Source: Candidatus Geothermarchaeota archaeon
GTDB lineage: Archaea; Thermoproteota; Nitrososphaeria; Geothermarchaeales; JDFR-13
DNA: 64,000 bases
Assembly: GCA_015523545.1 (NCBI GenBank)
Contig: WAKB01000001.1
Span: 66,159-130,158 of the forward strand
Direction of reading: 5' to 3'
This document shows, piece after piece, positions 8,732-28,025 of this stretch (position 1 is the first letter of the stretch; the number at the start of each line of letters is the position of its first letter). The notes under the pieces were generated by a model, which was not told where the DNA came from, did not search any database, and saw nothing but the letters and a program-made list of their open reading frames with translations. Position numbers and translations under genes: made by a program.

Positions 8732-8737
8732 CCCGGG

Positions 8738-10435
8738 TCACCCCTCAAGCTTGGTGCCACACTTTACACAGAACTTGGCGCCAGGCTTGTTCGGATGACC
8801 ACAGCTTGGGCAGTACAACGCACCCTCCACAGGCTCAGGCGGAGCCTTCCTGGGAATCCTTGCTCCCAGCCCTCCCCTCCTAAGGAATATGTAGGATCCT
8901 ACTCCTATTAGAGCCAGTAGTGGCAGGGCGATCATCCATAGGGGTAGGCCTGGTGAAGCCACCTTTATCGTGACGGTGCTTGAGGCTGGGTTGAAGTCCT
9001 CATCACCTACAAAGTTAGCTGTGACCACTAGGTCTCCACCACTTGATGGGGTATATGTCAGGCTGAAGGTATTGTCCTCACCAACCCTCACTGTACGTGT
9101 CTCGGTATTGCCCCCTAGCTGAATGGTTATATCCACCAAGACATCCTTGAAGGAGACGTCTACGCCTAGTGGGTTGGGCCCGTCATAGCTGAGCGACCCT
9201 GTTATAGTGACGGTCTCACCAGCATTCACCTCCGTTGCATTGGCCTGTAGAGATAATGTAACGTCCTTCTTAGCACCCTCGGCCAGCTTCGACTGGGCCT
9301 TCTGGATCATGTATGACGCATACCAGTTGAAGGGGTAGAGGCTCCTTACATCCTCGAAGACCTTCTTGGCCCTAGAGTAGAGCCCTGCATAGAAGTATCC
9401 TACACCCTCCTCCCACATCTGGTCAACCGGGCCACGGGTATTGTAGCTCACACCCTGCTCCGCCAGATACTGTTTAAGTAGATCTCCCGGTATGAAGAAG
9501 TTGAAACCTGCCACAGGCTCCAGGTTCTCATCAACAGACCCCATATTGGTTACTCCTATGACCTCACCCATCTCGTTAACCACTGGCCCACCACTATTGC
9601 CTTTACTGATATCGACATTCATCTGTATTGCCCTCACATCTGTAATCGTCCTCCTCTCACCGCTGATGATACCATTTGTGTAGGAGGGGAATAGCAAAGT
9701 ATCCTCGCTCAGCATAGTATGGAAGTTAACAACACCTGGATAGCCAAACGCATATATCGTCTGTCCAGGTTGATACTCATCCACCTCACTAATCTTAAGT
9801 GAAGGTGTGTTCGCCACATCAATCTTGAGAACGGCGAGGTCCCTGCCAACTAGGAAGGGATCGGGAGTACCTACAACTCTTGCTATTATACCGTCCTCCC
9901 TGATCTTTCCGCCACTAGACTCGCCAACCAGGACATAGACTATCCTTATAGCGTTTCTTACCTCCCCGTAGGTCAGGACATGGTTTATAATGAACTCTAT
10001 GTCCTCCTGGGTAATGTTATAGCCACTCTGTATAAGGTTGTTAATGATGTCGATCGCGGCACTCCTAACAAGCTCTGTTTTCACAAAGATATCCTCGAGA
10101 TAGTCTGAATGGGTCATGGCGAAGACTACATGCCCATTAGTCACTATGTAGCCATCGTTATTCACGAAGAATCCACTCCCAATACCCCCAATCATCGAGT
10201 TAACTGTGAAGAAGTCGGCTGTCGGTCGTCCATACCTATCGACATAGGGAACCTTTATCTCGGCCTCTATGATCGTAACTATGAAGACGACTCCGGGTAA
10301 AACTAGGTCATAGATAGCCTCTGGACTGATAGCCTCCTGGGCTGCAACAGGCTCCACGACAGGCGTATATGGATTCGCAATCGGGCCAAGGAGTATTCCC
10401 AGCAGAATCAATACGATTATCCCATGCCTAACCAT
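8738..10435 (-). CDS. membrane-anchored trypsin-fold serine protease (S1C/HtrA-like) with an Ig-like domain, TM helix and C-terminal zinc ribbon
   Basis: 565 aa with an N-terminal hydrophobic signal/anchor (IIVLILLGILLGPIA). The triad context is GSGFFVNNDGYIVTNGHVV, DLAVLKI and GNSGGPVVN. The TM helix is WMIALPLLALIGVGSYIFL and the tail is CPSCGHPNKPGAKFCVKCGTKLEG. Confidence 0.88.
   Translation of the reverse strand: MVRHGIIVLILLGILLGPIANPYTPVVEPVAAQEAISPEAIYDLVLPGVVFIVTIIEAEIKVPYVDRYGRPTADFFTVNSMIGGIGSGFFVNNDGYIVTNGHVVFAMTHSDYLEDIFVKTELVRSAAIDIINNLIQSGYNITQEDIEFIINHVLTYGEVRNAIRIVYVLVGESSGGKIREDGIIARVVGTPDPFLVGRDLAVLKIDVANTPSLKISEVDEYQPGQTIYAFGYPGVVNFHTMLSEDTLLFPSYTNGIISGERRTITDVRAIQMNVDISKGNSGGPVVNEMGEVIGVTNMGSVDENLEPVAGFNFFIPGDLLKQYLAEQGVSYNTRGPVDQMWEEGVGYFYAGLYSRAKKVFEDVRSLYPFNWYASYMIQKAQSKLAEGAKKDVTLSLQANATEVNAGETVTITGSLSYDGPNPLGVDVSFKDVLVDITIQLGGNTETRTVRVGEDNTFSLTYTPSSGGDLVVTANFVGDEDFNPASSTVTIKVASPGLPLWMIALPLLALIGVGSYIFLRRGGLGARIPRKAPPEPVEGALYCPSCGHPNKPGAKFCVKCGTKLEG
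8741..8812 (-). other. C-terminal zinc-ribbon module of the serine protease
   Basis: Sequence is CPSCGHPNKPGAKFCVKCGTKLEG. By hand count, 57 of 81 aligned nt are identical to the corresponding segment of the giant ORF. Confidence 0.8.
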
Positions 10436-15215: not shown

Positions 15216-16122
15216 GCCTCCTATATACAGTATAGGCCAGATAACCGTCCTGCACCGCTGTGCCGACACTCTTGAATATCGTCAGCTCATCCCTCGACAC
15301 CCTACCAGCTACACTTCCAAGTACGAGCTCCGAGAACAGGTGTACGGCATCCCTCGAGACCAGCCCCTCCCTAATGGCGAGTCCCACCTCACCGACCTCG
15401 TATAGGTCGGGACTGTCTATGAACACCTTATCGGCAGATGCCACTAGCCGTGGATCCAGCTCCGCACTATCCCTACCCATGTATCCCATACTCGCTATGT
15501 GCCGACCCCTCGGCGAGGAGTCTATGACCGGCCTACTACTAGTAGTGGCTAGGATAACCACCTCAGCCCTCTCTACAACCTCACCTGGGGAGGATGCCAC
15601 GTATGCCTCGACACCCTTTCTACCCAGCTCCTCAGCATACCTAACAGCCTTCTCCACACCCCTGTTATGGAGATATACACGCCTAATACCTGGGAACCAC
15701 TCTAGATGCATCTCTAGGCTGGCCCTACCTATACGGCCCACCCCGATGAGCCCAATATTCTCCGGCTCCCCGTAGAGCTCGATAGTTGATACTAGGGCCA
15801 TACCAGCCGTACGTAGAACAGTTATGGAGACACCATCGACGATGCATAGCGGCTCCATAGACCCCAGGTCATATACAAAGACGTATGCGTTGAAGGGCCT
15901 ACCGTCGAAGGGATAATCCACAACCTTCAGCGTATAGACCCCATACTCCCTAATGTGGCATGGCATAGCCCCTAGGAAGCGTGACCCACCCTCTATCAGG
16001 AGCTCCGACCTGGGCGGCTGATCGACACCCGGGTCTAGGAAGCCTCTGAACGCCCTATATACAGAGTCTACTACATCTCTAAGAGGTAGAGACTCCACCT
16101 CCTCCCTACTAATCACCCTCAT
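15205..16122 (-). CDS. ornithine cyclodeaminase / mu-crystallin family NAD(P) enzyme (archaeal alanine dehydrogenase-type)
   Basis: 305 aa with the Rossmann motif GLIGVGRIGRASLEMH and typical OCD-family length and layout. Confidence 0.75.
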   Translation of the reverse strand: MRVISREEVESLPLRDVVDSVYRAFRGFLDPGVDQPPRSELLIEGGSRFLGAMPCHIREYGVYTLKVVDYPFDGRPFNAYVFVYDLGSMEPLCIVDGVSITVLRTAGMALVSTIELYGEPENIGLIGVGRIGRASLEMHLEWFPGIRRVYLHNRGVEKAVRYAEELGRKGVEAYVASSPGEVVERAEVVILATTSSRPVIDSSPRGRHIASMGYMGRDSAELDPRLVASADKVFIDSPDLYEVGEVGLAIREGLVSRDAVHLFSELVLGSVAGRVSRDELTIFKSVGTAVQDGYLAYTVYRRLSP

Positions 16123-17069
16123 GGCTCCACTACACCCACATGCTCCATGAGCAGGGATCTATACCTCTCGGGATCCTCTACATAGCCCATATACACGTTT
16201 TTACCGCCTCCACCCCTACCTCCACACTCCCCACTTATCCTGGCCTTAAGCCCCTCTATATCCACCCCCCTGCTGGCTAGGAAGACCATATGCTTCTCGC
16301 CATCCCAGCTGAGTACCGAGAGGACATCTACTCCACGCTCATTCATAACGTTTCTAGCCCGGCTAGTGACCCTCTTCATGTCTAGGTAGGGAAGCTCTAC
16401 AGCTAGTAGGCTATACCTCCCTCTAAGCAGAGGCCACCTCGACAGGGCTGTGTCGACAACCTCCCTAGAAGCCTTCTCCACCCTAATCTCAAGCTCCTTA
16501 AGACTCTCTACACGGTTATAGAGATCCTCGAGGGAGGAGCCTAGTAGGCGCGTCATACTATATATGTTGGATGCGCTCTCTAGGGCGTAGTCGACTGCCC
16601 TCTCCCCAGTATAGAACTCAAGCTCATAGAGCCCGGAGCGAACCCTCCTGATCAGCCTGGGAACAACTAGCCGCACCTCTGACGCCCTCTCCACATGGGG
16701 GTTTATACATGCCGAGGCGTCGTAGTCACCTATCCTGACGACCCTGATGAACTCCTTATCGCCCAGCCTCTCCTCATATGCCCTGAGGCCGGGATACTTG
16801 GCCCTAGCCTCATCAAGGCTGCTGAAGACCTCCACGTGGAACGGTAGGTCATCAGCAATGGCCCTGTTAGCCATCCTCGCAGCCTCTATAACGGTCTCCC
16901 ATCCAATATCGCCGTCATACCTGAGGAAAGCCTTATCCACACCACTATCCTCATGGACGACCCTCACCACCTTTAGCCCGGGCACCAGCTTGTATAGACT
17001 ACCCACGAGGAGATGCTCCCCCGAATGTCTAACCCTTATATCCCCATTATCCACCTCGACACACCCCAT
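16119..17069 (-). CDS. alaX: AlaX-type alanyl-tRNA trans-editing protein with a C-terminal DHHA1-like domain
   Basis: Zinc motifs HSGEH (HxxxH) and CINPH (CxxxH) are present. The C-terminal glycine cluster GGRGGGGKNVYMG resembles the AlaRS C-domain. Its stop region overlaps the downstream gene start by 4 nt. Confidence 0.75.
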   Translation of the reverse strand: MGCVEVDNGDIRVRHSGEHLLVGSLYKLVPGLKVVRVVHEDSGVDKAFLRYDGDIGWETVIEAARMANRAIADDLPFHVEVFSSLDEARAKYPGLRAYEERLGDKEFIRVVRIGDYDASACINPHVERASEVRLVVPRLIRRVRSGLYELEFYTGERAVDYALESASNIYSMTRLLGSSLEDLYNRVESLKELEIRVEKASREVVDTALSRWPLLRGRYSLLAVELPYLDMKRVTSRARNVMNERGVDVLSVLSWDGEKHMVFLASRGVDIEGLKARISGECGGRGGGGKNVYMGYVEDPERYRSLLMEHVGVVEP

Positions 17070-19822
17070 TGGGACAAGCCATTATAAACACCCCAAGCCT
17101 GAATAATTATTTTAACACGCACCGAGGGGTGGTTACTATTGAATACAACATCAGGATCGGCCTCGAGATACACATCCCACTCTCAACAGTAGATACCAAG
17201 CTATTCTGCCAATGTCCAAACCCGTTTAAACATCCTCCTGAGATGCCCAACCAATATGTATGCCCCACATGCCTGGGCCTACCTGGAGCCCTCCCCAGCC
17301 CAAATAGAGAGGCTATTAGGAAGGCGATAATCCTAGCGAAGGCCCTGAAGATGGAGATACCCAGTAAGATACAGTTCTACAGGAAGCATTATCTATATCC
17401 AGACCTACCCAAGGGATACCAGATAACCCAGTACATGGCTGGTGGGGATCTCCCAATAGGTATTAGGGGAGGGATGCTCTTCAGGGATAGGTATATGGGG
17501 ATAAGGAGGATACAGCTGGAGGAGGATCCCGCCAGGCTGGAGCATCCAGGTGGGCTGGGCGAGTCTAGTAGGACGCTCATCGACTACAACAGGTCTGGAG
17601 CCCCACTTATAGAGCTGGTTACCGAGCCAGAGATATACAGCCCTAGGGAGGCGAGGATATTCATAGAGGAGCTGACCAGACTCCTTGTCACGATAGGAGT
17701 TATATCCGAGGATACCCAGCCAAAGGTAGACGCAAACATATCTATCGAGGGTGGGCCGAGGGTAGAGATCAAGAACATATCCTCCCCCAGGGATGTTGAG
17801 AAGGCCCTTAGCTACGAGGCCATGAGGATGGCTAGATACATGGAGGAGGGTATAGAGATAAGGCGGGAGACGCGGCACTGGGACGATAGGAGGAGGGTGA
17901 CAATACCCCTTAGGGAGAAGGAGTATGAGGAGGAGTATAGATATATACCCGACCCCAACCTACCACCGATAGACATATCCGACATGATAGCCGAGGTCGA
18001 GGAGCCGGAGACCCCCCTGAAAATCCTGGAGAGGATCATCAGGGATGGGGTCGATGTGTACCCGGCCAAGATCATAGCATCGGACAGGAGACTCCTAAGA
18101 ATCTACCGGGAGGCCTCGGAGGGACTTGGGAGAAGGGCTAGGACGGAGCTGGCCAAGACACTTGTAAACGAGGCTAAACACATGCTAAACACCGGGAAGA
18201 CCGTGGAGGAGCTAATAGAAACCATGAAGCCCCTATACCAGCTGGTGGATAAGGGTATCATCACACCGGCCGAGGCTAGGGAGAAGCTCCTAGGAAGAAG
18301 GGGGTTGAAACTGGCCGATCAGGAGGAGATACTAAAGACGGTTGATAAGGTTCTTAGAGAGGTTGATACTAGTAGGAGGAGGAGTATAGACTACGTGGTC
18401 GGTACCGTTCTTAGAAGGCTTAGGGAGAGGGGTCTCGATGCGGACCCGAGGAGTATAGCCGAGTATGCCCGTGGAAAGATCGAGACAGCCAGGAAGATAG
18501 AGGTGAGGAGGGCTAGGGATGGAGAGGATAGGATGTATAAGGGTGTCGCGGAGGCCCCTAGACCAGTGGATCCTAGCGAGTTACCCAGCCTAGTCGGATC
18601 TGAAGTGGTTATAGGTGGCTGGCTAGAGACGAGGGCATATGTTGGGGACAAGCTCTTCCTACGGCTCAGGCATTGGAGAGGCACTGTACAGGTAGTGGCT
18701 CATGGAGATAGCCCGGCCTACAGAGAATTGTCGAGGCTCCCCAGAGAGGCATATATAGTCGTGAGGGGCAGGGTAGTCAGGGACTCAAGGGCCCCCGGCG
18801 GGCTAGAGATCCACGCATCAGAGGTAATCCCCGTAGGTACATCCACCGACCCACCATTGACACTGATGGACCTGGCTAGGTCAAGCCTCCCAACCAGGGT
18901 CAGGCATAGATACCTCGACATAAGGCGGCGTAGGGTGAGGGCTGTCCTATACATAAGGGCAAGGCTACTAGAGATCGTGAGGAGCCTCCTAACCAGGAAG
19001 GGCTTCGTAGAGATACAGACACCCACGATAATAGCCTCGGCCACAGAAGGAGGGGCGGAGCTATTCCCACTGATATACTATGGTAGGGAGGCCTTCCTAG
19101 CCCAGAGCCCCCAGCTATATAAACAGATGGCTATAAACGCCTTCGAGAAGGTCTTCGAGATCGATAGCTACTACCGGGCCCAGAAATTCGACACCCCACG
19201 CCACCTAGCAGAGTTCTGGTCCCTAGACGTCGAGGCCGCCCACCACGGGCTGGGAGACCTGATCAGCCTAGCTAGGGAGATACTTCTCGAGATACATAGG
19301 ACGCTCCCCTCAAAGGCGGGTGACGAGCTCATGCTCCTAGGGGTCGAGCTTGAGCCAGAGCCTAGCTTCGCGGAGATGAGTTATGACGAGGCTGTGGAGA
19401 TATCGGGGACGAGGTATGGCGAGGACATCTCTGCAGAGGCGTTAAGAGAGGTGTATAAGGAGGCGAACGCTAGATACCTGTTCATAACCCACTGGCCAGA
19501 GGAGACCAGGGCCTTCTACTACCGATCGATAGACGGGATAACCAGGAGCTTCGACCTAGTAGGACCCTTCACAGGGACGCCTATAGAACTTGCCAGTGGT
19601 GGGGAGAGGATAAACAGCTATGACGAGCTCGTCAGGAGCATTAGGCGTAGGGGGCTTAGGGAGGAATCGTATGGATGGTACCTAGAGATGTTTAGGTATG
19701 GAATGCCCCCACACGGAGGCTTCGGGTTGGGGATAGACAGGCTACTAGCATCCATCCTAGGCCTCGACTCCGTCTTGGAGGCAACCCTAATACCCAGGAC
19801 ACCCAAGTACTACGTCCCATAG
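17069..19822 (+). CDS. gatB-aspS: fusion protein: Asp/Glu-tRNA amidotransferase subunit B (GatB) joined to an archaeal-type aspartyl-tRNA synthetase (class IIb)
   Basis: Residues ~25-488 carry GatB hallmarks: IGLEIHIPL, TKLFCQC, CPTCLGLPGALP, YLYPDLPKGYQITQ, RIQLEEDPARL, NRSGAPLIELVTEP, EIKNISS, and a helical YqeY-like tail. Residues 489-917 form a full AspRS: the OB fold GSEVVIGGWLETRAYVGDKLFLRLRHWRGTVQVV, then FVEIQTPTIIASATEGGAELF, AQSPQLYKQ, YRAQKFDTPRHLAEFWSLDVE and GMPPHGGFGLGIDRL. The frame is uninterrupted. A likelier start is the GTG at 17129. Confidence 0.85.
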   Translation: MGQAIINTPSLNNYFNTHRGVVTIEYNIRIGLEIHIPLSTVDTKLFCQCPNPFKHPPEMPNQYVCPTCLGLPGALPSPNREAIRKAIILAKALKMEIPSKIQFYRKHYLYPDLPKGYQITQYMAGGDLPIGIRGGMLFRDRYMGIRRIQLEEDPARLEHPGGLGESSRTLIDYNRSGAPLIELVTEPEIYSPREARIFIEELTRLLVTIGVISEDTQPKVDANISIEGGPRVEIKNISSPRDVEKALSYEAMRMARYMEEGIEIRRETRHWDDRRRVTIPLREKEYEEEYRYIPDPNLPPIDISDMIAEVEEPETPLKILERIIRDGVDVYPAKIIASDRRLLRIYREASEGLGRRARTELAKTLVNEAKHMLNTGKTVEELIETMKPLYQLVDKGIITPAEAREKLLGRRGLKLADQEEILKTVDKVLREVDTSRRRSIDYVVGTVLRRLRERGLDADPRSIAEYARGKIETARKIEVRRARDGEDRMYKGVAEAPRPVDPSELPSLVGSEVVIGGWLETRAYVGDKLFLRLRHWRGTVQVVAHGDSPAYRELSRLPREAYIVVRGRVVRDSRAPGGLEIHASEVIPVGTSTDPPLTLMDLARSSLPTRVRHRYLDIRRRRVRAVLYIRARLLEIVRSLLTRKGFVEIQTPTIIASATEGGAELFPLIYYGREAFLAQSPQLYKQMAINAFEKVFEIDSYYRAQKFDTPRHLAEFWSLDVEAAHHGLGDLISLAREILLEIHRTLPSKAGDELMLLGVELEPEPSFAEMSYDEAVEISGTRYGEDISAEALREVYKEANARYLFITHWPEETRAFYYRSIDGITRSFDLVGPFTGTPIELASGGERINSYDELVRSIRRRGLREESYGWYLEMFRYGMPPHGGFGLGIDRLLASILGLDSVLEATLIPRTPKYYVP
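17102..17114 (+). promoter_or_regulatory. TATA-like box upstream of the gatB-aspS ORF
   Basis: aataattatttta lies about 20-27 nt upstream of the in-frame GTG at 17129, which immediately precedes the conserved GatB N-terminus (IGLEIH). This suggests 17129 is the real start rather than the ATG at 17069. Confidence 0.4.
18533..19822 (+). other. aspS: AspRS module of the fusion ORF, beginning at the in-frame Met489 (possible ancestral or alternative start)
   Basis: The ATG at 18533 is in frame: (18533-17069)/3 = 488. The 429 aa from here (MYKGVAEAP...) match the length and N-terminal style of stand-alone archaeal AspRS. Confidence 0.7.
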
Positions 19823-21250
19823 GTGGTGCACGTGCTCAGACTACTAGACCTGTTCGAGGCGGACGACCCGATAAGCCTAAGCGAGAAGTATTACGAGAGG
19901 CTCAGAAGGTGGGAAGGGAGGCTAAACATGTTCATAACACTTAGGGAGTGGGGCGAGATCCAGCTAGTCCACGAGCCAGGTAAGCCCCTCTCAGGAGGCC
20001 TAATACCTATAAAGGACAACATATCCACAAGGGGTCTGAGAACCACATGTGGAAGCAGGATACTCGAGAACTATATACCCCCCTACGACGCCTACGCCGT
20101 GGAGAGGCTGAGGGAGATAGGTCTAGAAGTGGTTGGTAAGACGAACATGGACGAGTTCGGGATGGGGAGCACCGGCGAGAATAGTGGCTATGGCCCAACC
20201 CTTAATCCATGGAACACTGGCCATGTCCCCGGAGGGAGCAGCTCAGGGAGTGCCGCCGCTGTAGCAGTGGCTGGAGGAGCCGCCCTCGGAAGCGATACCG
20301 GTGGTAGCGTCAGGCTACCCGCGGCATACTGCTACGTACTAGGTCTTAAGCCGACATATGGACTCGTGAGCCGCTACGGACTAGTATCCTACGCCGACAG
20401 CCTTGAGCAGATAGGGATACTTGCCAGATATCCGGAGGACATGGCCTACATACTATACCACATCTCCAAGCTCGATACTAGAGACATGACCATGTCACGT
20501 ACAGAGGCTAGGGAGGAGCTTAGAGAGAGGCTGATAAACCTCTACACTGGAGGGCCCAGTGGACTGGACGGGTTAAGGATAGGCTACTCACCAGAACTGA
20601 TTGAGATGGCCGATGATGAGGTAGCGGGGGAGGTATACAGGGCACTTGACAAGCTGGTGGAGCTGGGGGTCAAAGCCGAGGAGATAGATCTCGGATTCAT
20701 GGAGGCAGGCCTATCCACCTACTACGCCATAGCGATGGCCGAGGCATCATCAAACCTTATGAGGTACGACGGCGTCCTATACGGCTCCATGGAGAGGGAG
20801 GGGGACTACTGGAGCAGCGTATACAGGACACGGGGGATGAGGCTCGGAGAGGAGGTCAAGAGGCGCATCGTCTACGGCACCCTAATAACCTCCGCGGGCT
20901 ACAGTGGGAGGTACTACATCAAGGCACTCAGGATAAGGAGGTGGATAAGGGATATGCTGATAGAGAGGCTTGGGAGGGTCGACGCCGTGCTGATGCCAAC
21001 ATCACCCTCCACACCACCCAGGCTAGGAGAGGTTGAGGGTGTAGACATGTATGCCCTCGACCTATACACTGTGATACCCAACCTCACCGGCCATCCAGCC
21101 ATAAACATCCCCGCCGGATTCGTAGGCGGCCTACCTGTGGGGATACAGCTAGTAACACGCTACTTCAATGACGATCTATTGATAAGGATCGCCAGGGGAC
21201 TAGTGGGTGTCTTATACGACCCTTCGAAGGAGGTGGAGATGGATGGATAG
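19823..21250 (+). CDS. gatA: Asp/Glu-tRNA amidotransferase subunit A (amidase signature family)
   Basis: Amidase signature GGSSSGSAAAVA...GSDTGGSVRLPA. The GTG start directly follows the TAG of the fusion ORF (tagGTG). Confidence 0.92.
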   Translation: MVHVLRLLDLFEADDPISLSEKYYERLRRWEGRLNMFITLREWGEIQLVHEPGKPLSGGLIPIKDNISTRGLRTTCGSRILENYIPPYDAYAVERLREIGLEVVGKTNMDEFGMGSTGENSGYGPTLNPWNTGHVPGGSSSGSAAAVAVAGGAALGSDTGGSVRLPAAYCYVLGLKPTYGLVSRYGLVSYADSLEQIGILARYPEDMAYILYHISKLDTRDMTMSRTEAREELRERLINLYTGGPSGLDGLRIGYSPELIEMADDEVAGEVYRALDKLVELGVKAEEIDLGFMEAGLSTYYAIAMAEASSNLMRYDGVLYGSMEREGDYWSSVYRTRGMRLGEEVKRRIVYGTLITSAGYSGRYYIKALRIRRWIRDMLIERLGRVDAVLMPTSPSTPPRLGEVEGVDMYALDLYTVIPNLTGHPAINIPAGFVGGLPVGIQLVTRYFNDDLLIRIARGLVGVLYDPSKEVEMDG

Positions 21251-21509
21251 ACAGGACGTGGAGAAGGCGTTGAGACTGGCTGGTATAGGGGACGATCCCG
21301 AGAAGTATATGGAGCAGCTGGAGAAGGTTGAGAGGCTCTTCAGCCAGCTAGACAGGTGGCTCGACGAGGCTCCTGATGAGCCTCTCTACCACCCCCTAGA
21401 CATAGATACCGAGCCTAGGAAGGACGAGCCCATCACCAGTGATGCCAGGGACTGGATAGAGGGGGATGAGGAGGGCTATGTAGAGGCCCCACCCCTAAGA
21501 CGTAGATAG
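21243..21509 (+). CDS. gatC: Asp/Glu-tRNA amidotransferase subunit C
   Basis: MDRQDVEKALRLAGIGDDPEKYMEQLEKVERLFSQLD fits the GatC pattern. The ATG at 21243 overlaps the gatA stop by 8 nt. The longer ORF starting at 21207 is unlikely. Confidence 0.8.
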   Translation: MDRQDVEKALRLAGIGDDPEKYMEQLEKVERLFSQLDRWLDEAPDEPLYHPLDIDTEPRKDEPITSDARDWIEGDEEGYVEAPPLRRR

Positions 21510-21974
21510 GCCCTCCAATAGGCTCTCCACATAGCCCTCCTTGACACCCTCCGAGACGATGTTGAGTATGAGCCTGGTATGGGTCCTGTCGACATACTCG
21601 ATCCTCTGAACCTCCTTTATGAAGCTGTCCAGCTCACTCCTGGTGCGGAACCAGGCATACAGGGTTATGTCATACTCACCAGTGATGTCGTATACAGCCT
21701 GGACATTAGGCATAGATGCCAGGCGCTCCTCAACCTCCCTGAGGAAGCCTCCCCTCACCTTGACATCGATCATCACTGGGAATATGTAGCCAAGCCTCTC
21801 CAAGTCGATATCCACGGTATACCTCCTTATCACACCCATATCCTCAAGCCTCTTCCTCCTAGCCTCGACAGTCCCCACAGAGACGCCGAGCCTCCTAGAG
21901 AGTTCACGGCTACTTATACGGCCCTCCCTAAGGAGGATGGAGAGTATCTTGAGGTCTAGCCTATCCAGCTCCAT
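21495..21974 (-). CDS. Lrp/AsnC family transcriptional regulator
   Basis: From the internal Met the sequence reads MELDRLDLKILSILLREGRISSRELSRRLGVSVGTVEARRKRLEDMGVI, an HTH, followed by a RAM/ACT-like C-domain. The 73-aa N-terminal extension in the ORF track has non-coding-like composition. Confidence 0.85.
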   Translation of the reverse strand: MELDRLDLKILSILLREGRISSRELSRRLGVSVGTVEARRKRLEDMGVIRRYTVDIDLERLGYIFPVMIDVKVRGGFLREVEERLASMPNVQAVYDITGEYDITLYAWFRTRSELDSFIKEVQRIEYVDRTHTRLILNIVSEGVKEGYVESLLEGLSTS

Positions 21975-22119
21975 ATGTATTTCTATATACACCGCGAGAC
22001 ATAAACAAATGTCCAATTTGAAACGTGTTGGATGGATAAACATTAAACAAGTGTCAAGACCTGTTTTATGGCTGACCCGTGGGAAGCTCTTTACATATAC
22101 ACTCATGAGGTGGTAATCC

Positions 22120-23523
22120 TTGGACGAGGTTGTTGAGAAGGTATTCGAGGATATGGAGCTGAACAAGGTGAGATGGGTAACACTCACCTTCACAGACCTA
22201 CGAGGCTACCAGAAACAGGTGACTATCAAGAGAAAGCCAGAGAAGGAGTGGCTGGAGAAGCTCTTCACGAGAGGGGTGGGGAAGCTTGACGGGAGCAGCA
22301 TCGAGGGGTTCCAAGATATATCGGAGAGCGACCTGATGCTGAGGCCCGACCCCACTACCTACGCTATCCTCCCATGGTCAGGCGACACAGCCAGACTAAT
22401 ATCCAACATATTGATCAGGGGTGAGGACTATCCCAAGGATCCCAGGGGAGCCCTGGCCAAGACGGTGGAGAAGATGGGGCCATACATCCCCTTGATGGGT
22501 GCAGAGGTAGAGTTCTTCATACTCAACGGCCTATCCACGATCGTCAACGACCTTGAATATACATTCCTGACCAGCCTAGAGACGCTTGAAGCCCCAGTTA
22601 CACAGGGATACCCCTACAGGCCGAAGACTGGGTACTACATGGAGTGGGGTCTCGACACAGTGATAGGCTTCAGGAGGAGGCTGGTCGAGGTGCTGGAGGG
22701 GTGGTTCGGGATGGAGGTTGAGAGCCACCATCACGAGGTCGCCATAGCGGGGCAGAGCGAGATAAACATCAGGTATGGAGACCCCGTATCCACTGCTGAC
22801 AACGTCATGACCCTGAAATACGTGGCCCGTGTATTGGCTAGGGAGGAGTTTGGAGGCATAACACCCCTATTCATGCCCAAGCCCATACCCACAGACAACG
22901 GTTCAGGCCTACATATGCATATAAGCCTGGTTAGGAATGGTAGGAACGTATTCTACGACCCAGACGACGAATATGCACATCTAAGCCAGGAGGCGAGATA
23001 CTTCATAGGTGGGCTTCTCGAGCATGGAAGGGCATTATCAGCACTGGTCTCACCCACCGTCAACAGCTACCACAGATTGGTGCCAGGCTATGAGGCACCG
23101 ATATACCTGACATGGGGCAGATCCAATAGGAGCGCCGCAGTCAGGGTCCCATTCTACGACCCTGAAAGCAGGAATGCGAAGCTTGAGTATAGGCCTCCCG
23201 ACCCATCATGCAACCCATACATAGCGATGGCGGGGATACTAGCGGCCGGGATGGACGGTATAAAGAAGAAGAGGGATCCAGGGCCACCTGTAGATGAGAA
23301 TGTCTATAAGATGCCTAAGCAGAGGGTTAGGGAACTGGGTATAAAGACCCTACCAGCCAGCCTACTAGAGGCCCTTGAGGAACTTGAGAGCGACATGACA
23401 TTCCTAGAGAAGTACATCCCCAAGGAGCTGCTAGAGAGCTATATAGAGCTTAAGAGGGAGGAGGCCAAGACACTGGCTAAGTATCCGTCCCCAGCCGAGT
23501 TCCAGCTATACTCCACGCTCTAG
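22120..23523 (+). CDS. glnA: glutamine synthetase type I
   Basis: 467 aa with a beta-grasp N-domain (VRWVTLTFTDLRGY), GSGLHMHISL and the NRSAAVRVP region. The start is TTG 22120 or a downstream ATG. Confidence 0.92.
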   Translation: MDEVVEKVFEDMELNKVRWVTLTFTDLRGYQKQVTIKRKPEKEWLEKLFTRGVGKLDGSSIEGFQDISESDLMLRPDPTTYAILPWSGDTARLISNILIRGEDYPKDPRGALAKTVEKMGPYIPLMGAEVEFFILNGLSTIVNDLEYTFLTSLETLEAPVTQGYPYRPKTGYYMEWGLDTVIGFRRRLVEVLEGWFGMEVESHHHEVAIAGQSEINIRYGDPVSTADNVMTLKYVARVLAREEFGGITPLFMPKPIPTDNGSGLHMHISLVRNGRNVFYDPDDEYAHLSQEARYFIGGLLEHGRALSALVSPTVNSYHRLVPGYEAPIYLTWGRSNRSAAVRVPFYDPESRNAKLEYRPPDPSCNPYIAMAGILAAGMDGIKKKRDPGPPVDENVYKMPKQRVRELGIKTLPASLLEALEELESDMTFLEKYIPKELLESYIELKREEAKTLAKYPSPAEFQLYSTL

Positions 23524-25804: not shown

Positions 25805-26071
25805 ATGGGGAGGTCTATACCCAGCCCAACCAGGCATATAGACCGTGAGATAAGGAGGATTAGGAGGCTGGCCAGGAGATACCCGATGTATAGGGAGGGG
25901 CTAGAGAGGCTGGCCAGGATACTGAGACGGCGTAGGAGCATAGTATACCTCCTAACCGACCCCGAGGACGTGGCAGACCTACCATACCTAGTCGCCGCAT
26001 CGGTGCTACAGGGTGGTGAGGATGGGGACGGGCTGGATACTCAGGGTATTGAGAGACCTCGAGAGGGATAG
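25805..26071 (+). CDS. small Arg-rich hypothetical protein
   Basis: 88-aa ORF whose ATG follows the upstream stop by 1 nt (tgagATG). The N-terminal half is very basic (REIRRIRRLARRY...RILRRRRS). Its 3-prime end overlaps the polB frame by 50-59 nt. Confidence 0.4.
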   Translation: MGRSIPSPTRHIDREIRRIRRLARRYPMYREGLERLARILRRRRSIVYLLTDPEDVADLPYLVAASVLQGGEDGDGLDTQGIERPREG

Positions 26072-28025
26072 ATACGTACTCGTCATCAGGGAGTTTATGG
26101 GTAGGAGGATCCTCAGGGACCTGGTGCACCACCCCTCGATATACGTCAGTGGGGATAGGGAGGATCTGAGGGAGCTGCTTAGGGGGCTAGAGGCCTCGGA
26201 CTACCTAGTCGACTATGCATATGAGGAGTGGCTCCTCCCACCCTGGTATAGGAGGAGGGGGAGGATACTGAGGATAGACCTGCCAGGCCCTAGGGAGTAT
26301 GACGAGGTTCTTAGACACCTGAGGCTGGATGGGAGGTATAGGCTTTGGAACACCTATCCAAGCGATACCCAGATGATGATGTATAGGATGGGTATAGCCC
26401 CCTCACTACTCCTAAGGACCATGGATCTCCACCCCATAGACAATCCATGGGAGATGAACTATCTAGAGCCCGGATTCAGAAGGGTGGTCATAAGGCTCCT
26501 AGACTGGTACGGAGAAGTGGTGAATCCATGGGCTAAGGAGCCGATGATCTACGAGGTGTCCTACAACGTGGATGGCTACTGGGACGAGGCTATATATAGA
26601 GGCCTGGACAGCCTCATAGACGACCTGAGGGAGTATGACCCCGACGTGGTGGAGTTCACCTCTACATCAGCATATGTATGGCTGAGGGAGAGGGATGGAT
26701 TCTTCAGGGACACGGCGAGGGCATATATAGACTATGAGAGGAACGTCCTGGAGCCCCATGAATACCACGGCTTCATAGAGCTGAGCAGGCTAAGCAGGAC
26801 AGATATACACGAGGTATCGAGGTACAGCATAGGGAAGATACTCACCACGATAGAGGCCTACGAGGCACTATCCATGGGGCGTGCCATACCCGAGGTGAGG
26901 ACTGAGTGGGAGGGCTACAAAGACATCAAGCTCCTAAGCAGGGTCGACAGGGGTGGATACATAGCCAGCCCCAGGCCCGGTCTATACTGGAACGTGGCCC
27001 AGTGCGACTTCACAAGCCTATATCCCTCCATAATCGTGAGGTACAACATTGGGAACGAGACCGTCAACAGGCCTGGCTGCAGCAGGGAGATAAGGGTTCC
27101 AGAGGCGGGGCACAGGATATGCCTAGACACTAGATCTGTGGTGGCAAGCACACTAGAGAAGCTCTTGAAGAGGAGGATAAGGCTTAAAGACATGGCTAGG
27201 GAGACCGGCGACCCCATCCTAAATAGTCGGCAGAACGCCCTGAAATGGATACTCGTAACATGCTTCGGATATCTGGGCTATAGGAACGCCCGGTTCGGGA
27301 AGATAGAGGCATATGAATCGGTGACCTCCTATGCGAGACACATAATGTATAGAGCCGCCGAGATAGCCAGGGAGATGGGGCTGGAGGCTATCCACATACT
27401 CGTAGACAGTATATGGGTCTCGGGGGGAGACGAGAAGACCTATAGAAAGTATTGTATAAGGGTTACACGGGAGACGGGGTTCAGGATGGAGCTCGAGGCA
27501 CTCTACAGGTGGCTATACATACCCCCAAACAGGTCCGGCATGGGGGAGGCGGCGATAAACAGGTATGTAGGCGGACTGGTGGATGGGGGCTACAAGGCCA
27601 AGGGGGTAGAGATGGTTAGGAGCGACGTCCCAAGGATAGTAGCCGAGTTCCAGCGCCAGGCACTCGCACTACTAGCCAGGGCGGAGAACCCCGAGGAGAT
27701 GGAGCGTATAGTAGGCAAGATACCCAGGCTGATAGAGATATTCAGGAAAGCAATCATGAAAGGCGAGGTGGAGCTGGAATACCTCGTAGTAACACGTAGA
27801 CTCTCCAAGAAGCCGGGTGAATACCTATCTAGACAGCCACATGTAGAGGCGGCCAAGAAGCTGGGTAGATGGGTTGGTAAGGTGAAGTATATACTTACAT
27901 CGAGGGGGGCTGTGCCGGTAGAGCTATGGAAGCCCTCTATGGGCTACGACGTGGACAAATATGTCGAGATGATGGTTAGGAGCCTAGCCAGCCTACCGGT
28001 ACCACTCGAGAGGCTTGGACTATAG
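26013..28025 (+). CDS. polB: family B DNA polymerase, PolB3-like (exonuclease motifs not recognisable, motif C degenerate)
   Basis: Motif A is QCDFTSLYPSII and the motif B region is NSRQNALKWILVTCFGYLGY. Motif C reads HILVDSIWV instead of YGDTDS. I could not find Exo I (DxE) or Exo II (NxxxFD); the expected Exo II site reads DPDVVEFTSTSAY. Start candidates are GTG 26013/26016 and ATG 26022. Confidence 0.8.
   Translation: MVRMGTGWILRVLRDLERDRYVLVIREFMGRRILRDLVHHPSIYVSGDREDLRELLRGLEASDYLVDYAYEEWLLPPWYRRRGRILRIDLPGPREYDEVLRHLRLDGRYRLWNTYPSDTQMMMYRMGIAPSLLLRTMDLHPIDNPWEMNYLEPGFRRVVIRLLDWYGEVVNPWAKEPMIYEVSYNVDGYWDEAIYRGLDSLIDDLREYDPDVVEFTSTSAYVWLRERDGFFRDTARAYIDYERNVLEPHEYHGFIELSRLSRTDIHEVSRYSIGKILTTIEAYEALSMGRAIPEVRTEWEGYKDIKLLSRVDRGGYIASPRPGLYWNVAQCDFTSLYPSIIVRYNIGNETVNRPGCSREIRVPEAGHRICLDTRSVVASTLEKLLKRRIRLKDMARETGDPILNSRQNALKWILVTCFGYLGYRNARFGKIEAYESVTSYARHIMYRAAEIAREMGLEAIHILVDSIWVSGGDEKTYRKYCIRVTRETGFRMELEALYRWLYIPPNRSGMGEAAINRYVGGLVDGGYKAKGVEMVRSDVPRIVAEFQRQALALLARAENPEEMERIVGKIPRLIEIFRKAIMKGEVELEYLVVTRRLSKKPGEYLSRQPHVEAAKKLGRWVGKVKYILTSRGAVPVELWKPSMGYDVDKYVEMMVRSLASLPVPLERLGL

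What the first reader, a model, noticed from the sequence alone, without database searches (positions are those of the whole stretch)
17069..19822. Complete GatB and complete AspRS encoded as one 917-aa polypeptide: a covalent transamidosome
Seen: one uninterrupted frame contains a full-length GatB, with all N-terminal cradle motifs and the helical YqeY-like tail (residues ~25-488). It is followed directly by a full-length archaeal-type class IIb aaRS: OB-fold anticodon-binding domain, motifs 1-3 and GMPPHGGFGLGIDRL. The junction sits at the in-frame Met489 (ATG 18533). The 429 aa from this Met have exactly the size and N-terminal style of a stand-alone archaeal AspRS, so this looks like loss of the gatB stop codon. 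gatA starts on the GTG immediately after the stop (tagGTG), and gatC overlaps gatA by 8 nt.

Established: Asn-tRNA(Asn) is made indirectly by a non-discriminating AspRS plus GatCAB, and in Thermus these form a non-covalent transamidosome that channels Asp-tRNA(Asn).

Inference: here channelling would be hard-wired by gene fusion. I am not aware of a described natural GatB-AspRS fusion. An alternative is that AspRS is also, or only, made from the internal Met.
Basis: partly seen in the sequence, partly recalled or inferred. Interest (0 to 1): 0.8.

Follow-up and report, generated by a model that had tools for sequence, protein, structure and literature searches.

The report
GatB fused to aspartyl-tRNA synthetase
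Two enzymes that normally only meet on a tRNA to make asparaginyl-tRNA, the synthetase AspRS and the GatB subunit of the amidotransferase, are here one conserved polypeptide in a clade of mostly hot-environment archaea, which I found described in no paper I could search.

Summary
One uninterrupted frame encodes a complete GatB followed by a complete archaeal-type AspRS, then gatA and gatC. The real start is most likely GTG 17129 (897 aa), not TTG 17069 (917 aa).

It is not an assembly artefact or a recent stop-codon loss:
- The identical protein occurs in independent assemblies.
- About 30 protein clusters, down to roughly 40% identity, keep the same open frame.
- The fused clade is monophyletic for both modules, with no stand-alone genes nested inside.

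Met489 lies in a variable, charged linker of about 22 residues and is not conserved (Val, Leu, Ile or absent in relatives). A conserved internal start is therefore unsupported.

The same GatB-to-AspRS polarity arose separately in Ruminococcus isolates, in bacteria with GAD-type AspRS, and perhaps in Baldrarchaeia.

Both modules keep their catalytic motifs, and the AspRS carries the Pro signature of non-discriminating enzymes.

Best reading: a covalently tethered Asn-transamidosome, (GatC-GatA-GatB~AspRS)2. No paper describing it was found, though the sequences sit in public databases under single-function names.

Channelling, and whether a second aspS or an asnS exists in the genome, could not be tested here.

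The parts
17129..19822 (+). gatB~aspS fusion gene. The likely start is GTG 17129 (897 aa). The mechanical ORF starts at TTG 17069 (917 aa).
   Evidence: Searches show the ORF. Searches show 897-aa gene calls, with the identical protein P0121 in independent assemblies. One search shows that solved GatB chains align from residue 6 of the 897-aa form. One search shows an A/T-rich TATA-like stretch at 17100-17117 just upstream.
17153..17989 (+). GatB catalytic cradle domain (GatB_N), residues 29-307 in 917-aa numbering.
   Evidence: One search gives Pfam PF02934 at E 8e-81. One search shows residues that are invariant across both fused and stand-alone GatBs. Searches show the match to GatB chains 3AL0_B, 3KFU_F and 3H0L_B.
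17990..18484 (+). GatB helical domain plus a divergent YqeY-like tail, residues 308-472.
   Evidence: hhalign against stand-alone GatB tails gives 99% probability, E 2e-18. PF02637 is only sub-threshold (17 bits); the model shows confident helices here.
18485..18550 (+). Inter-module linker of about 22 residues (473-494), charged and variable. It contains Met489 (ATG 18533).
   Evidence: Searches show variable length and sequence, with 31-48% charged residues over the 52-74-residue junction segment. One search shows pLDDT below 50 at residues 462-474 of the 897-aa model. One search shows that Met489 is GTG/Val in L001.
18551..19819 (+). Archaeal-type AspRS module. The OB-fold anticodon-binding domain is at nt 18605-18832 and the class II catalytic core at nt 18893-19801.
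   Evidence: Searches give the domain and family matches; best solved relative is 1WYD (E 1e-90), and it also aligns to 1N9W/3KFU; target-normalised TM 0.82-0.83. QSPQLYKQ, motif 2 and motif 3 (GMPPHGGFGLGIDRL) are conserved, with nearly all of their residues invariant across the family.
19823..21250 (+). gatA, the glutaminase subunit. An alternative start is GTG 19832.
   Evidence: One search gives Amidase at E 2e-117. One search gives TIGR00132 at 463 bits, just under its 481 cut-off. Searches show the start codons.
21243..21509 (+). gatC. It overlaps gatA by 8 nt and has a GGAGGTG Shine-Dalgarno motif 7 nt upstream.
   Evidence: Searches give only weak GatC matches (18.6 and 20.4 bits, below cut-off). 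One search shows its position is conserved in L001-L003. One search shows the junction sequence.
21495..21974 (-). Lrp/AsnC-family regulator, a conserved neighbour. The likely start is Met74 of the 232-aa mechanical ORF.
   Evidence: Searches give the family matches. One search shows synteny in L001-L003.
22120..23523 (+). glnA, type I glutamine synthetase, a conserved neighbour. It makes the amide donor that GatA uses.
   Evidence: One search gives TIGR00653 at 486 bits, above its 429 cut-off. One search shows synteny in L001-L003.
16119..17069 (-). AlaX-like gene (AlaRS editing plus DHHA1-type C-terminal region), divergently transcribed.
   Evidence: Searches give the family matches. One search shows it is conserved upstream in L001 and L005. 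One search shows a gene with the same Pfam families next to the stand-alone aspS in Nitrosocaldus.

Best explanation
This is a real, anciently fixed gene fusion. GatB (cradle, helical and tail domains) is joined through a flexible charged linker of about 22 residues to a full archaeal-type, probably non-discriminating AspRS. It is co-transcribed with gatA and gatC.

**Inferred assembly.** Class II AspRS is an obligate dimer and GatB binds GatA-GatC. The product should therefore be a (GatC-GatA-GatB~AspRS)2 particle, a transamidosome whose two enzymes are tethered covalently instead of being held together only by tRNA(Asn).

**Inferred mechanism.** The AspRS module aspartylates tRNA(Asn). The acceptor end then swings to the GatB site, where Asp is phosphorylated and amidated with ammonia from GatA, giving Asn-tRNA(Asn).

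**Why the polarity is fixed (inference).** The tether joins the two tRNA-body-binding modules: the GatB tail, which binds the D-loop/elbow, and the AspRS OB-fold, which binds the anticodon. That would explain why every independent fusion has the same GatB-to-AspRS order.

**Shown:** the architecture, its conservation, its recurrence, intact motifs, and the operon.
**Inferred:** quaternary structure, non-discrimination and channelling.
For: **The frame and its domains**
- The frame is open and all domains are present.
- The identical protein is found in NCBI assembly GCA_027060065.1 and in an independent Logan assembly of run SRR10312503.

**Conservation of the fusion**
- About 30 clusters at 40-99% identity share the architecture.
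- The frame is continuous in loci L001-L005.
- The fused clade is monophyletic in both the GatB and the AspRS trees, with no stand-alone sequence inside.
- The order [gatB~aspS]-gatA-gatC, then an Lrp-type regulator and glnA, is conserved at about 50% identity.

**Recurrence with the same polarity**
- Separate fusions occur in Ruminococcus isolates and Baldrarchaeia (operon order gatC-gatA-[gatB~aspS]) and in bacteria with GAD-type AspRS.

**Intact function**
- Catalytic residues of both modules are invariant across the family.
- Pro at the position aligned with T. kodakarensis Lys85 is present in all 17 archaeal fused sequences examined. My recollection of the literature is that this is the non-discriminating signature.
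- NF003483, aspartate--tRNA(Asn) ligase, scores above its cut-off.

**Structure**
- Both halves superpose on chains of the crystallised T. thermophilus transamidosome 3KFU.
- The linker is predicted to be flexible.
Against: - There is no direct evidence that the 101 kDa polypeptide accumulates, or that the modules cooperate.
- The model gives no confident inter-module geometry (pTM 0.48).
- I could not read the transamidosome structure papers or coordinates, so I could not check that a linker of about 22 residues spans the distance from the GatB C-terminus to the AspRS N-terminus.
- The second specificity position, His in known non-discriminating enzymes, is Glu here. Non-discrimination is therefore predicted, not certain.
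- The GatB tail is unusually divergent.
- In the three closest relatives the residue at the Met489 position is Val, which could in principle be a GTG start.
- RefSeq also holds a 437-aa AspRS-only protein, WP_242871986.1 (unclassified Ruminococcus), in the same 90% cluster as the Ruminococcus fusion.
- No tRNA(Asn) gene could be examined, and the genome-wide aaRS content is unknown.
Confidence: 0.7

Rival explanations
1. One ORF, two products. Besides or instead of the fusion, a free AspRS is made by internal initiation at Met489 (ATG 18533), or the linker is cleaved after translation. Either way the cell would have ordinary separate GatB and AspRS.
For: - The 429 aa from Met489 match the length of stand-alone archaeal AspRS (1WYD is 429 aa).
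- A GGAG lies 8 nt upstream of the ATG.
- This genome does use Shine-Dalgarno motifs inside operons, as at gatC.
- The closest relatives have Val at this position, GTG in L001, which could still initiate.
- RefSeq also holds a 437-aa AspRS-only protein in the same 90% cluster as the Ruminococcus fusion.
- The linker is charged and predicted to be disordered, so it may be sensitive to proteases.
Against: - Met is not conserved: it is Val, Leu, Ile or absent. 11 of the 22 aligned fusions have no Met anywhere in the 52-74-residue junction.
- GGAG/GAGG occurs 119 times in the 2.7 kb ORF. Of the 37 internal in-frame ATG/GTG/TTG codons, 6 have such a motif 5-10 nt upstream, so the one before Met489 is not special.
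- There is no TATA-like element in the 60 nt upstream.
- If separate proteins were the functional state, there would be no reason for the frame to stay open across a clade diverged to about 41% identity, nor for the fusion to arise again elsewhere.
Confidence: 0.15
2. The fused AspRS is a dedicated tRNA(Asn)-only paralogue, like T. thermophilus AspRS2 or fungal ErdS, and a second, free AspRS elsewhere in the genome supplies Asp-tRNA(Asp) for translation. This rivals the view that the fusion is the cell's only AspRS. It does not rival the fusion itself.
For: - In ErdS, an AspRS fused to the enzyme that consumes its product traps the tRNA, and all ErdS-bearing fungi keep a second AspRS (PMC13219428).
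- T. thermophilus uses an extra archaeal-type AspRS for the transamidosome (PMC3367201).
- The Ruminococcus fusion carries an archaeal-type AspRS, which in bacteria is typically a second copy (my knowledge).
- The fused AspRS clade sits on a long stem branch.
Against: - Most archaea have a single AspRS (my knowledge).
- In Nitrosocaldus a stand-alone aspS, the only AspRS-like gene within the 11.6 kb fetched, lies next to an AlaX-like gene and close to gatCAB. The window's fused gene also lies next to an AlaX-like gene and to gatA and gatC, which hints at orthology.
- No second AspRS or AsnRS paralogue is present in the 64 kb window. That covers only a small part of the genome.
Confidence: 0.35
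3. It is an assembly or sequencing artefact: a lost stop codon or an indel has joined two adjacent genes.
For: None beyond the prior that fusions seen in metagenome-assembled genomes are sometimes artefacts.
Against: - The identical protein is found on 4 contigs, including independent assemblies.
- More than 30 clusters from NCBI, ENA, JGI and Logan share the open frame.
- In five genome loci the two halves are separated by exact multiples of 3 nt.
- An isolate genome, Ruminococcus sp. YE71, carries an analogous fusion.
Confidence: 0.01
4. The GatB part is only a tRNA-binding appendage with no catalytic role, as with the YqeY-like domain appended to Deinococcus GlnRS.
For: The tail is divergent. 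Appended GatB-tail-like domains are a known phenomenon (PMC1865053, listed).
Against: - The whole catalytic cradle is present, with the residues that are invariant in stand-alone GatBs.
- It scores above the GatB equivalog cut-off.
- gatA and gatC sit in the same operon, and no other gatB is nearby.
Confidence: 0.03

Closest known systems
Thermus thermophilus Asn-transamidosome (ND-AspRS2 + GatCAB + tRNA(Asn); PDB 3KFU)
   Same: It has the same components: an archaeal-type AspRS without a GAD domain, plus GatB, GatA and GatC. Both halves of the model superpose on 3KFU chains, with target-normalised TM of 0.83 for AspRS and 0.70 for GatB. The sequences align as well. It performs the same two-step route to Asn-tRNA(Asn).
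   Different: There the enzymes are separate polypeptides. Assembly depends on tRNA and uses extra 'scaffold' tRNAs (PMC3367201). Here GatB and AspRS are covalently joined, which fixes a 1:1 ratio and should make assembly independent of tRNA.
Bacterial Asn-transamidosomes (Pseudomonas aeruginosa 4WJ3; Helicobacter pylori)
   Same: The pathway and the partners are the same. Some of the fusions I found (P0081, P0099, P0148, P0157, P0271) carry this bacterial GAD-type AspRS.
   Different: The H. pylori complex is dynamic and non-covalent (PMC3367201). The window's AspRS lacks the GAD domain.
Bifunctional AspRS/GatC (NCBIfam NF009460, PRK12820)
   Same: It is another natural fusion of AspRS to a GatCAB subunit, so covalent coupling within this pathway has a precedent in annotation resources (the model is listed).
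   Different: The partner is the small GatC subunit, named after AspRS in the family title, whereas here it is GatB, the tRNA-binding catalytic subunit, N-terminal to AspRS. The window protein scores only 118 bits against a cut-off of 1379.
ErdS (fungal AspRS fused to an aminoacyl-tRNA transferase domain)
   Same: An AspRS is fused to the enzyme that consumes its aa-tRNA product, and the tRNA acceptor arm shuttles between the two active sites (PMC13219428).
   Different: The second domain is C-terminal and transfers Asp to ergosterol. The tRNA is tRNA(Asp), it is sequestered from translation, and a second AspRS exists. Here the product, Asn-tRNA(Asn), must be released for translation.
Other fusions around GatCAB: the Deinococcus GlnRS with a YqeY-like domain, and the Mycobacterium smegmatis gatC-gatA fusion mutant
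   Same: They show that GatCAB parts tolerate fusion and that GatB-tail-like domains can serve as tRNA-binding appendages on synthetases (PMC1865053, PMC7541841; listed).
   Different: Neither joins a complete, catalytic GatB to a complete synthetase.

Membership tests
GatB (Asp-tRNA(Asn)/Glu-tRNA(Gln) amidotransferase subunit B) | Catalytic cradle domain scoring above the curated family threshold | tested here: met
   PF02934 at E 8e-81. NF004012 at 384 bits against a 338 cut-off, and TIGR00133 at 335 against 315.
GatB (Asp-tRNA(Asn)/Glu-tRNA(Gln) amidotransferase subunit B) | Conserved active-site residues shared with stand-alone GatBs | tested here: met
   26 columns are invariant across 53 fused and stand-alone sequences, for example E131, E132, D152, N154, R155, K215, N216 and E230. 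IGLEIH is readable in the window protein and in all full-length relatives. In FYRKHY.YPDLPKGYQI.Q every written residue is invariant in the fused family; the two dots are variable positions.
GatB (Asp-tRNA(Asn)/Glu-tRNA(Gln) amidotransferase subunit B) | C-terminal helical plus YqeY-like tail domain, which binds the tRNA D-loop | tested here: met
   Pfam PF02637 is only sub-threshold at 17 bits. hhalign against stand-alone GatB tails gives 99% probability, E 2e-18, over 169 columns with two short deletions. The model shows confident helices.
GatB (Asp-tRNA(Asn)/Glu-tRNA(Gln) amidotransferase subunit B) | Partner subunits GatA and GatC encoded | tested here: met
   gatA and gatC lie immediately downstream and this is conserved in L001-L003. 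The GatC match itself is weak.
Archaeal-type aspartyl-tRNA synthetase (class IIb) | N-terminal OB-fold, class II core with motifs 1-3, no GAD insertion, and Asp-specific QSPQ | tested here: met
   Pfam hits and no PF02938. QSPQLYKQ, motif 2 and GMPPHGGFGLGIDRL are conserved, with nearly all of their residues invariant. Best solved relatives are 1WYD, 3NEL and 1N9W. Target-normalised TM 0.82.
Archaeal-type aspartyl-tRNA synthetase (class IIb) | It is AspRS rather than AsnRS | tested here: met
   NF003483 at 397 bits against a 353 cut-off. The AsnRS models score 247 against 414 and 232 against 343.
Non-discriminating AspRS (charges tRNA(Asn) as well) | Pro at the position of T. kodakarensis Lys85 (L1 loop, 'APGG') | tested here: met
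   RAPGG aligns with KAKLG of 3NEL/1B8A and with KAPGG/RAPRG of 1N9W/1WYD. Pro is present in 17 of 17 archaeal fused sequences. That this residue marks non-discrimination rests on my knowledge of the literature.
Non-discriminating AspRS (charges tRNA(Asn) as well) | His at the position of T. kodakarensis Trp26 | tested here: not met
   It is Glu here (GWLE), Glu in 15 fused relatives and Gln in the Baldrarchaeia pair. 1WYD and 1N9W have His. By my recollection, either single change is enough to relax specificity, so this does not exclude non-discrimination.
Non-discriminating AspRS (charges tRNA(Asn) as well) | Aspartylation of tRNA(Asn), shown biochemically | not testable with these tools
   It needs an enzyme assay. 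No tRNA gene lies in the window.
Transamidosome (AspRS-GatCAB-tRNA(Asn) particle) | Physical association of AspRS with GatCAB | tested here: met
   It is met in the trivial sense that GatB and AspRS are one polypeptide, assuming the protein is not cleaved. Association with GatA and GatC is inferred from the operon.
Transamidosome (AspRS-GatCAB-tRNA(Asn) particle) | Hand-over of Asp-tRNA(Asn) between the active sites without release | not testable with these tools
   It needs kinetics or a structure. The single-chain model has pTM 0.48 and no reliable inter-module geometry.
Transamidosome (AspRS-GatCAB-tRNA(Asn) particle) | The indirect pathway is required (no AsnRS in the genome) | not tested
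   Only 64 kb was available. No AsnRS or second AspRS paralogue lies in it.

The most novel reading that the evidence does not exclude
The fused protein is the only AspRS of these archaea. All Asp-tRNA(Asp) and all Asn-tRNA(Asn) would then be made on a permanent, tRNA-independent (GatCAB~AspRS)2 machine, in which the covalent tether replaces the scaffold tRNAs of the Thermus particle. Selection for this design has produced the same GatB-to-AspRS polarity at least three times independently.
Probability: 0.4. Interest if true: 0.7.

Novelty: new variant of a known kind. Interest (0 to 1): 0.58.

Why it matters
Transamidosomes are the textbook case of two enzymes using a tRNA as both substrate and scaffold, so that a mischarged intermediate never reaches the ribosome. 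How much that channelling matters, and how the particle is held together, has been argued from complexes that range from stable (Thermus) to transient (Helicobacter).

A natural, conserved and repeatedly evolved covalent version bears on this in four ways:
- It is evolutionary evidence that keeping AspRS next to GatB is selected for.
- It fixes the stoichiometry and predicts a defined (GatCAB~AspRS)2 architecture.
- It offers a particle, apparently from thermophiles, that should assemble without tRNA. That would suit cryo-EM and kinetic tests of hand-over.
- It raises a sharp question: how is Asp-tRNA(Asp) supplied if this is the only AspRS?

It also flags an annotation problem. These proteins are currently named as either GatB or AspRS alone.

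Tried and rejected
- **Assembly artefact.** Rejected: identical protein in independent assemblies and a conserved open frame.
- **AsnRS instead of AspRS.** Rejected on family scores and the QSPQ motif.
- **Recent stop-codon loss at Met489.** Rejected: an old monophyletic fused clade, a different operon order, and a non-conserved Met.
- **Second aspS or asnS in the genome.**
  - tblastn of the window found none.
  - The sister stand-alone AspRS, P0153, comes from an unbinned JGI contig and says nothing either way.
  - The question stays unresolved.
- **Transamidosome geometry.** I tried to read the Thermus and Pseudomonas structure papers to check the GatB C-terminus to AspRS N-terminus distance. 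Neither is held.
- **Pre-fusion state (gatB immediately followed by aspS).**
  - The three closest stand-alone GatB loci I fetched do not show it.
  - Nitrosocaldus has aspS and gatCAB clustered but not adjacent in that order.
- **P0150.** It looked like a fusion by length but is a double class II core.
- **AlaX-like genes.** tblastn did not confirm homology between the window's gene and the truncated Nitrosocaldus one. Only the shared Pfam families link them.

Full report

Yes. The + strand carries one uninterrupted ORF, 17069..19822. Residues below are in 917-aa numbering unless I say otherwise.
- Pfam finds GatB_N at residues 29-307, the OB-fold anticodon domain at 513-588 and the class II D/K/N core at 609-911.
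- NCBIfam equivalog models place the N half above the GatB cut-off (NF004012, 384 against 338).
- The part from Met489 scores above the aspartate--tRNA(Asn) ligase cut-off (NF003483, 397 against 353). The AsnRS models stay far below theirs.
- gatA starts on a GTG directly after the TAG stop.
- gatC (ATG 21243) overlaps gatA by 8 nt and has a GGAGGTG Shine-Dalgarno motif 7 nt upstream.

Two corrections:
- The first 20 codons from TTG 17069 have no counterpart in homologues or in solved GatBs. The gene calls of other assemblies are 897 aa, so the start is most likely GTG 17129. An A/T-rich, TATA-like stretch lies at 17100-17117.
- Pfam's GatB_Yqey model does not reach its threshold (17 bits). 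A profile-profile comparison of the fused clade's C-terminal GatB region with stand-alone GatB tails gives 99% probability (E 2e-18, 169 columns). The helical and tail domains are therefore present but divergent, with two short deletions.

**2. Artefact or real gene?**

Real.
- The identical 897-aa protein (P0121) is on four contigs. These include NCBI GCA_027060065.1 (a 519 kb contig) and an independent Logan assembly of run SRR10312503.
- A search of 5.8 billion clusters returned about 30 clusters with the same GatB_N + OB + class II architecture, at 99% down to about 40% identity.
- In five genome loci the two halves lie in the same frame, with every offset a multiple of three.
- The genomes are uncultured archaea labelled Nitrososphaeria, Candidatus Geothermarchaeota and Thermoprotei.

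**3. The junction**

Aligning 22 fused proteins shows strong conservation in both modules. Between them is a segment that varies in length and sequence and is rich in Lys, Arg, Glu and Asp.
- The GatB tail ends near residue 472.
- Solved AspRS chains begin to align so that their residue 1 corresponds to about residue 495.
- The linker is therefore about 22 residues (nt 18485-18550), and Met489 lies inside it.
- The structure model has pLDDT below 50 at residues 482-494, inside the linker.

Met489 is not conserved. It is GTG/Val in the 93%-identical genome L001, Val in P0002 and P0003, Leu in P0004 and Ile in P0005. Eleven of the 22 aligned fusions have no Met anywhere in the junction.

The GGAG 8 nt upstream of the ATG is not distinctive. 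GGAG/GAGG occurs 119 times in the ORF, and 6 of the 37 internal in-frame ATG/GTG/TTG codons have one 5-10 nt upstream. No TATA-like element precedes 18533.

An extra internal start in this particular species cannot be excluded. The family gives it no support.

**4. Evolution**

Quick neighbour-joining trees of each module, with the best stand-alone representatives included, gave these results:
- The window's clade is a single fused group with no stand-alone GatB or AspRS inside it. That implies one old fusion and no detected fission.
- The Baldrarchaeia pair (P0029, P0031) is separate in the GatB tree but sister to the clade in the AspRS tree, so its origin is unclear.
- The Ruminococcus fusions and the fusions with GAD-type AspRS lie elsewhere.

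Operon orders differ. The window clade has [gatB~aspS]-gatA-gatC. Baldrarchaeia and Ruminococcus sp. YE71, an isolate genome, have gatC-gatA-[gatB~aspS].

An exhaustive profile search of 1.84 billion 50%-identity representatives found only about nine fused representatives, against 6,298 matching at E <= 1e-30. Every one has GatB N-terminal to AspRS. The fusion is therefore rare, recurrent (at least three origins) and always of the same polarity.

In Candidatus Nitrosocaldus, a complete genome of the same class, the same genes are clustered but unfused: AlaX-like, a stand-alone aspS (37% identical to the window module), one unrelated gene, then gatC-gatA-gatB. None of the three stand-alone gatB loci I fetched has aspS directly downstream.

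**5. Are both modules functional?**

The evidence says yes.
- Residues invariant across fused and stand-alone GatBs include the acidic and basic residues of the cradle.
- AspRS motifs 2 and 3 and the Asp-specific QSPQLYKQ are conserved across the fused family, with nearly all of their residues invariant.
- The AlphaFold model is confident within modules (mean pLDDT 83).
- Each half matches the expected solved structures: AspRS 1WYD at target-normalised TM 0.82, 3KFU AspRS chains at 0.83, and GatB 3H0L_B at 0.77.
- Full-length GatB chains align over about 495 columns. No PDB chain contains both modules.

For tRNA specificity I rely on my recollection of the literature. Changing Trp26 to His, or Lys85 to Pro, in the discriminating T. 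kodakarensis enzyme relaxes it towards tRNA(Asn).
- The window protein has Pro at the Lys85 position, as do all 17 archaeal fused sequences examined. Stand-alone relatives are mixed P/K/R.
- It has Glu, not His, at the Trp26 position.
- Non-discrimination is therefore likely but not proven.

**6. How it most likely works**

Established knowledge covers four points:
- Class II AspRS is a dimer.
- GatB binds GatA-GatC.
- The GatB tail contacts the tRNA D-loop, and the AspRS OB-fold contacts the anticodon.
- In Thermus the particle is stable and tRNA-scaffolded, whereas in Helicobacter it is dynamic (PMC3367201; PMC9499178).

From this I infer a (GatC-GatA-GatB~AspRS)2 particle. In it the linker joins the two modules that hold the tRNA body, and the acceptor end swings from the synthetase site to the GatB site. 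The tether would make assembly independent of tRNA and fix a 1:1 ratio. The invariant polarity of independent fusions fits a geometric constraint of this kind.

The conserved neighbours, an Lrp/AsnC-type regulator and glnA (glutamine is GatA's amide donor), fit a nitrogen-linked unit.

None of the quaternary or kinetic claims was tested here. The model's pTM of 0.48 gives no inter-module geometry.

**7. Open question**

The ErdS precedent matters. There, an AspRS fused to the enzyme that consumes its product traps the tRNA, and those fungi keep a second AspRS (PMC13219428).

Whether these archaea have a second aspS, or an asnS, could not be determined. The window has none and has no tRNA genes, and I had no way to scan the rest of the genome.

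**8. Novelty**

Full-text searches for the fusion under several names found nothing. Reviews of indirect aminoacylation, archaeal coding systems and aaRS diversification do not mention it.

Related fusions are known: the NCBIfam 'bifunctional AspRS/GatC' model, ErdS, and LysX.

The sequences themselves are public, but they are named as GatB (WP_072418784.1) or as aspartate--tRNA(Asn) ligase (MHA1595811.1) alone. RefSeq also holds an AspRS-only 437-aa protein in the same 90% cluster as the Ruminococcus fusion.

I rate it a new variant of a known kind: a covalent transamidosome. Subscription-only papers could not be searched, so prior mention cannot be fully excluded.

Noticed in passing
window 21495-23523; L001-L003: A divergently oriented Lrp/AsnC-family regulator gene and a type I glutamine synthetase gene (glnA) directly follow gatC. 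This arrangement is conserved in relatives where the proteins are only about 50% identical. Glutamine is GatA's amide donor, so the gat operon may be co-regulated with glutamine supply.
   Followed up: partly
window 16119-17069 (-); L012 1-559: An AlaX-like gene (AlaRS editing plus DHHA1-type C-terminal region) lies head-to-head with the fusion gene. A gene with the same Pfam families lies next to the stand-alone aspS in Candidatus Nitrosocaldus. tblastn did not confirm homology to that truncated copy.
   Followed up: partly
P0034 / P0141 (Ruminococcus sp. YE71/YE78; L007 6001-8871): Public annotation of the fusions is inconsistent. The same 90% cluster holds a 956-aa 'GatB' (WP_072418784.1) and a 437-aa AspRS-only protein (WP_242871986.1). 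The Baldrarchaeia fusion is named only 'aspartate--tRNA(Asn) ligase'.
   Followed up: partly
P0251 (589 aa, from the representative search): A GatC-GatB fusion (GatC at residues 21-90, then full GatB_N and GatB_Yqey). This is another covalent variant within GatCAB.
   Followed up: no
P0150 (914 aa, from the representative search): A protein with an OB-fold and two class II D/K/N catalytic-core matches in tandem and no GatB. It appears to be a duplicated or fused AspRS/AsnRS-like enzyme.
   Followed up: no
L004 5909-8650 (CBDULE010000036.1): This relative has the fused gene but no gatA within the roughly 2 kb downstream, unlike L001-L003. The operon is therefore not universal in the fused clade.
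   Followed up: no
window AspRS residue in 'GWLE' (nt ~18620-18631): At the anticodon-binding position that is Trp in discriminating and His in known non-discriminating archaeal-type AspRS, the whole main fused clade has Glu and the Baldrarchaeia pair has Gln. This could be a third way of reading position 36 of the anticodon.
   Followed up: partly
window 4490-10435 (-): Two adjacent large genes both end in a zinc-ribbon domain. One encodes 1413 aa with a CarboxypepD_reg domain, the other 565 aa with a trypsin-like peptidase and an Ig-like domain. This looks like a paired surface or secreted protease system.
   Followed up: no
window 26013-28025 (+) and 28124-30202 (+): A 670-aa ORF matches only part of the family B DNA polymerase profile (residues 313-455). 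It is followed by a 692-aa ORF with no Pfam match at E <= 1e-5.
   Followed up: no
window 1-64000: ARAGORN finds no tRNA gene anywhere in the 64 kb.
   Followed up: yes
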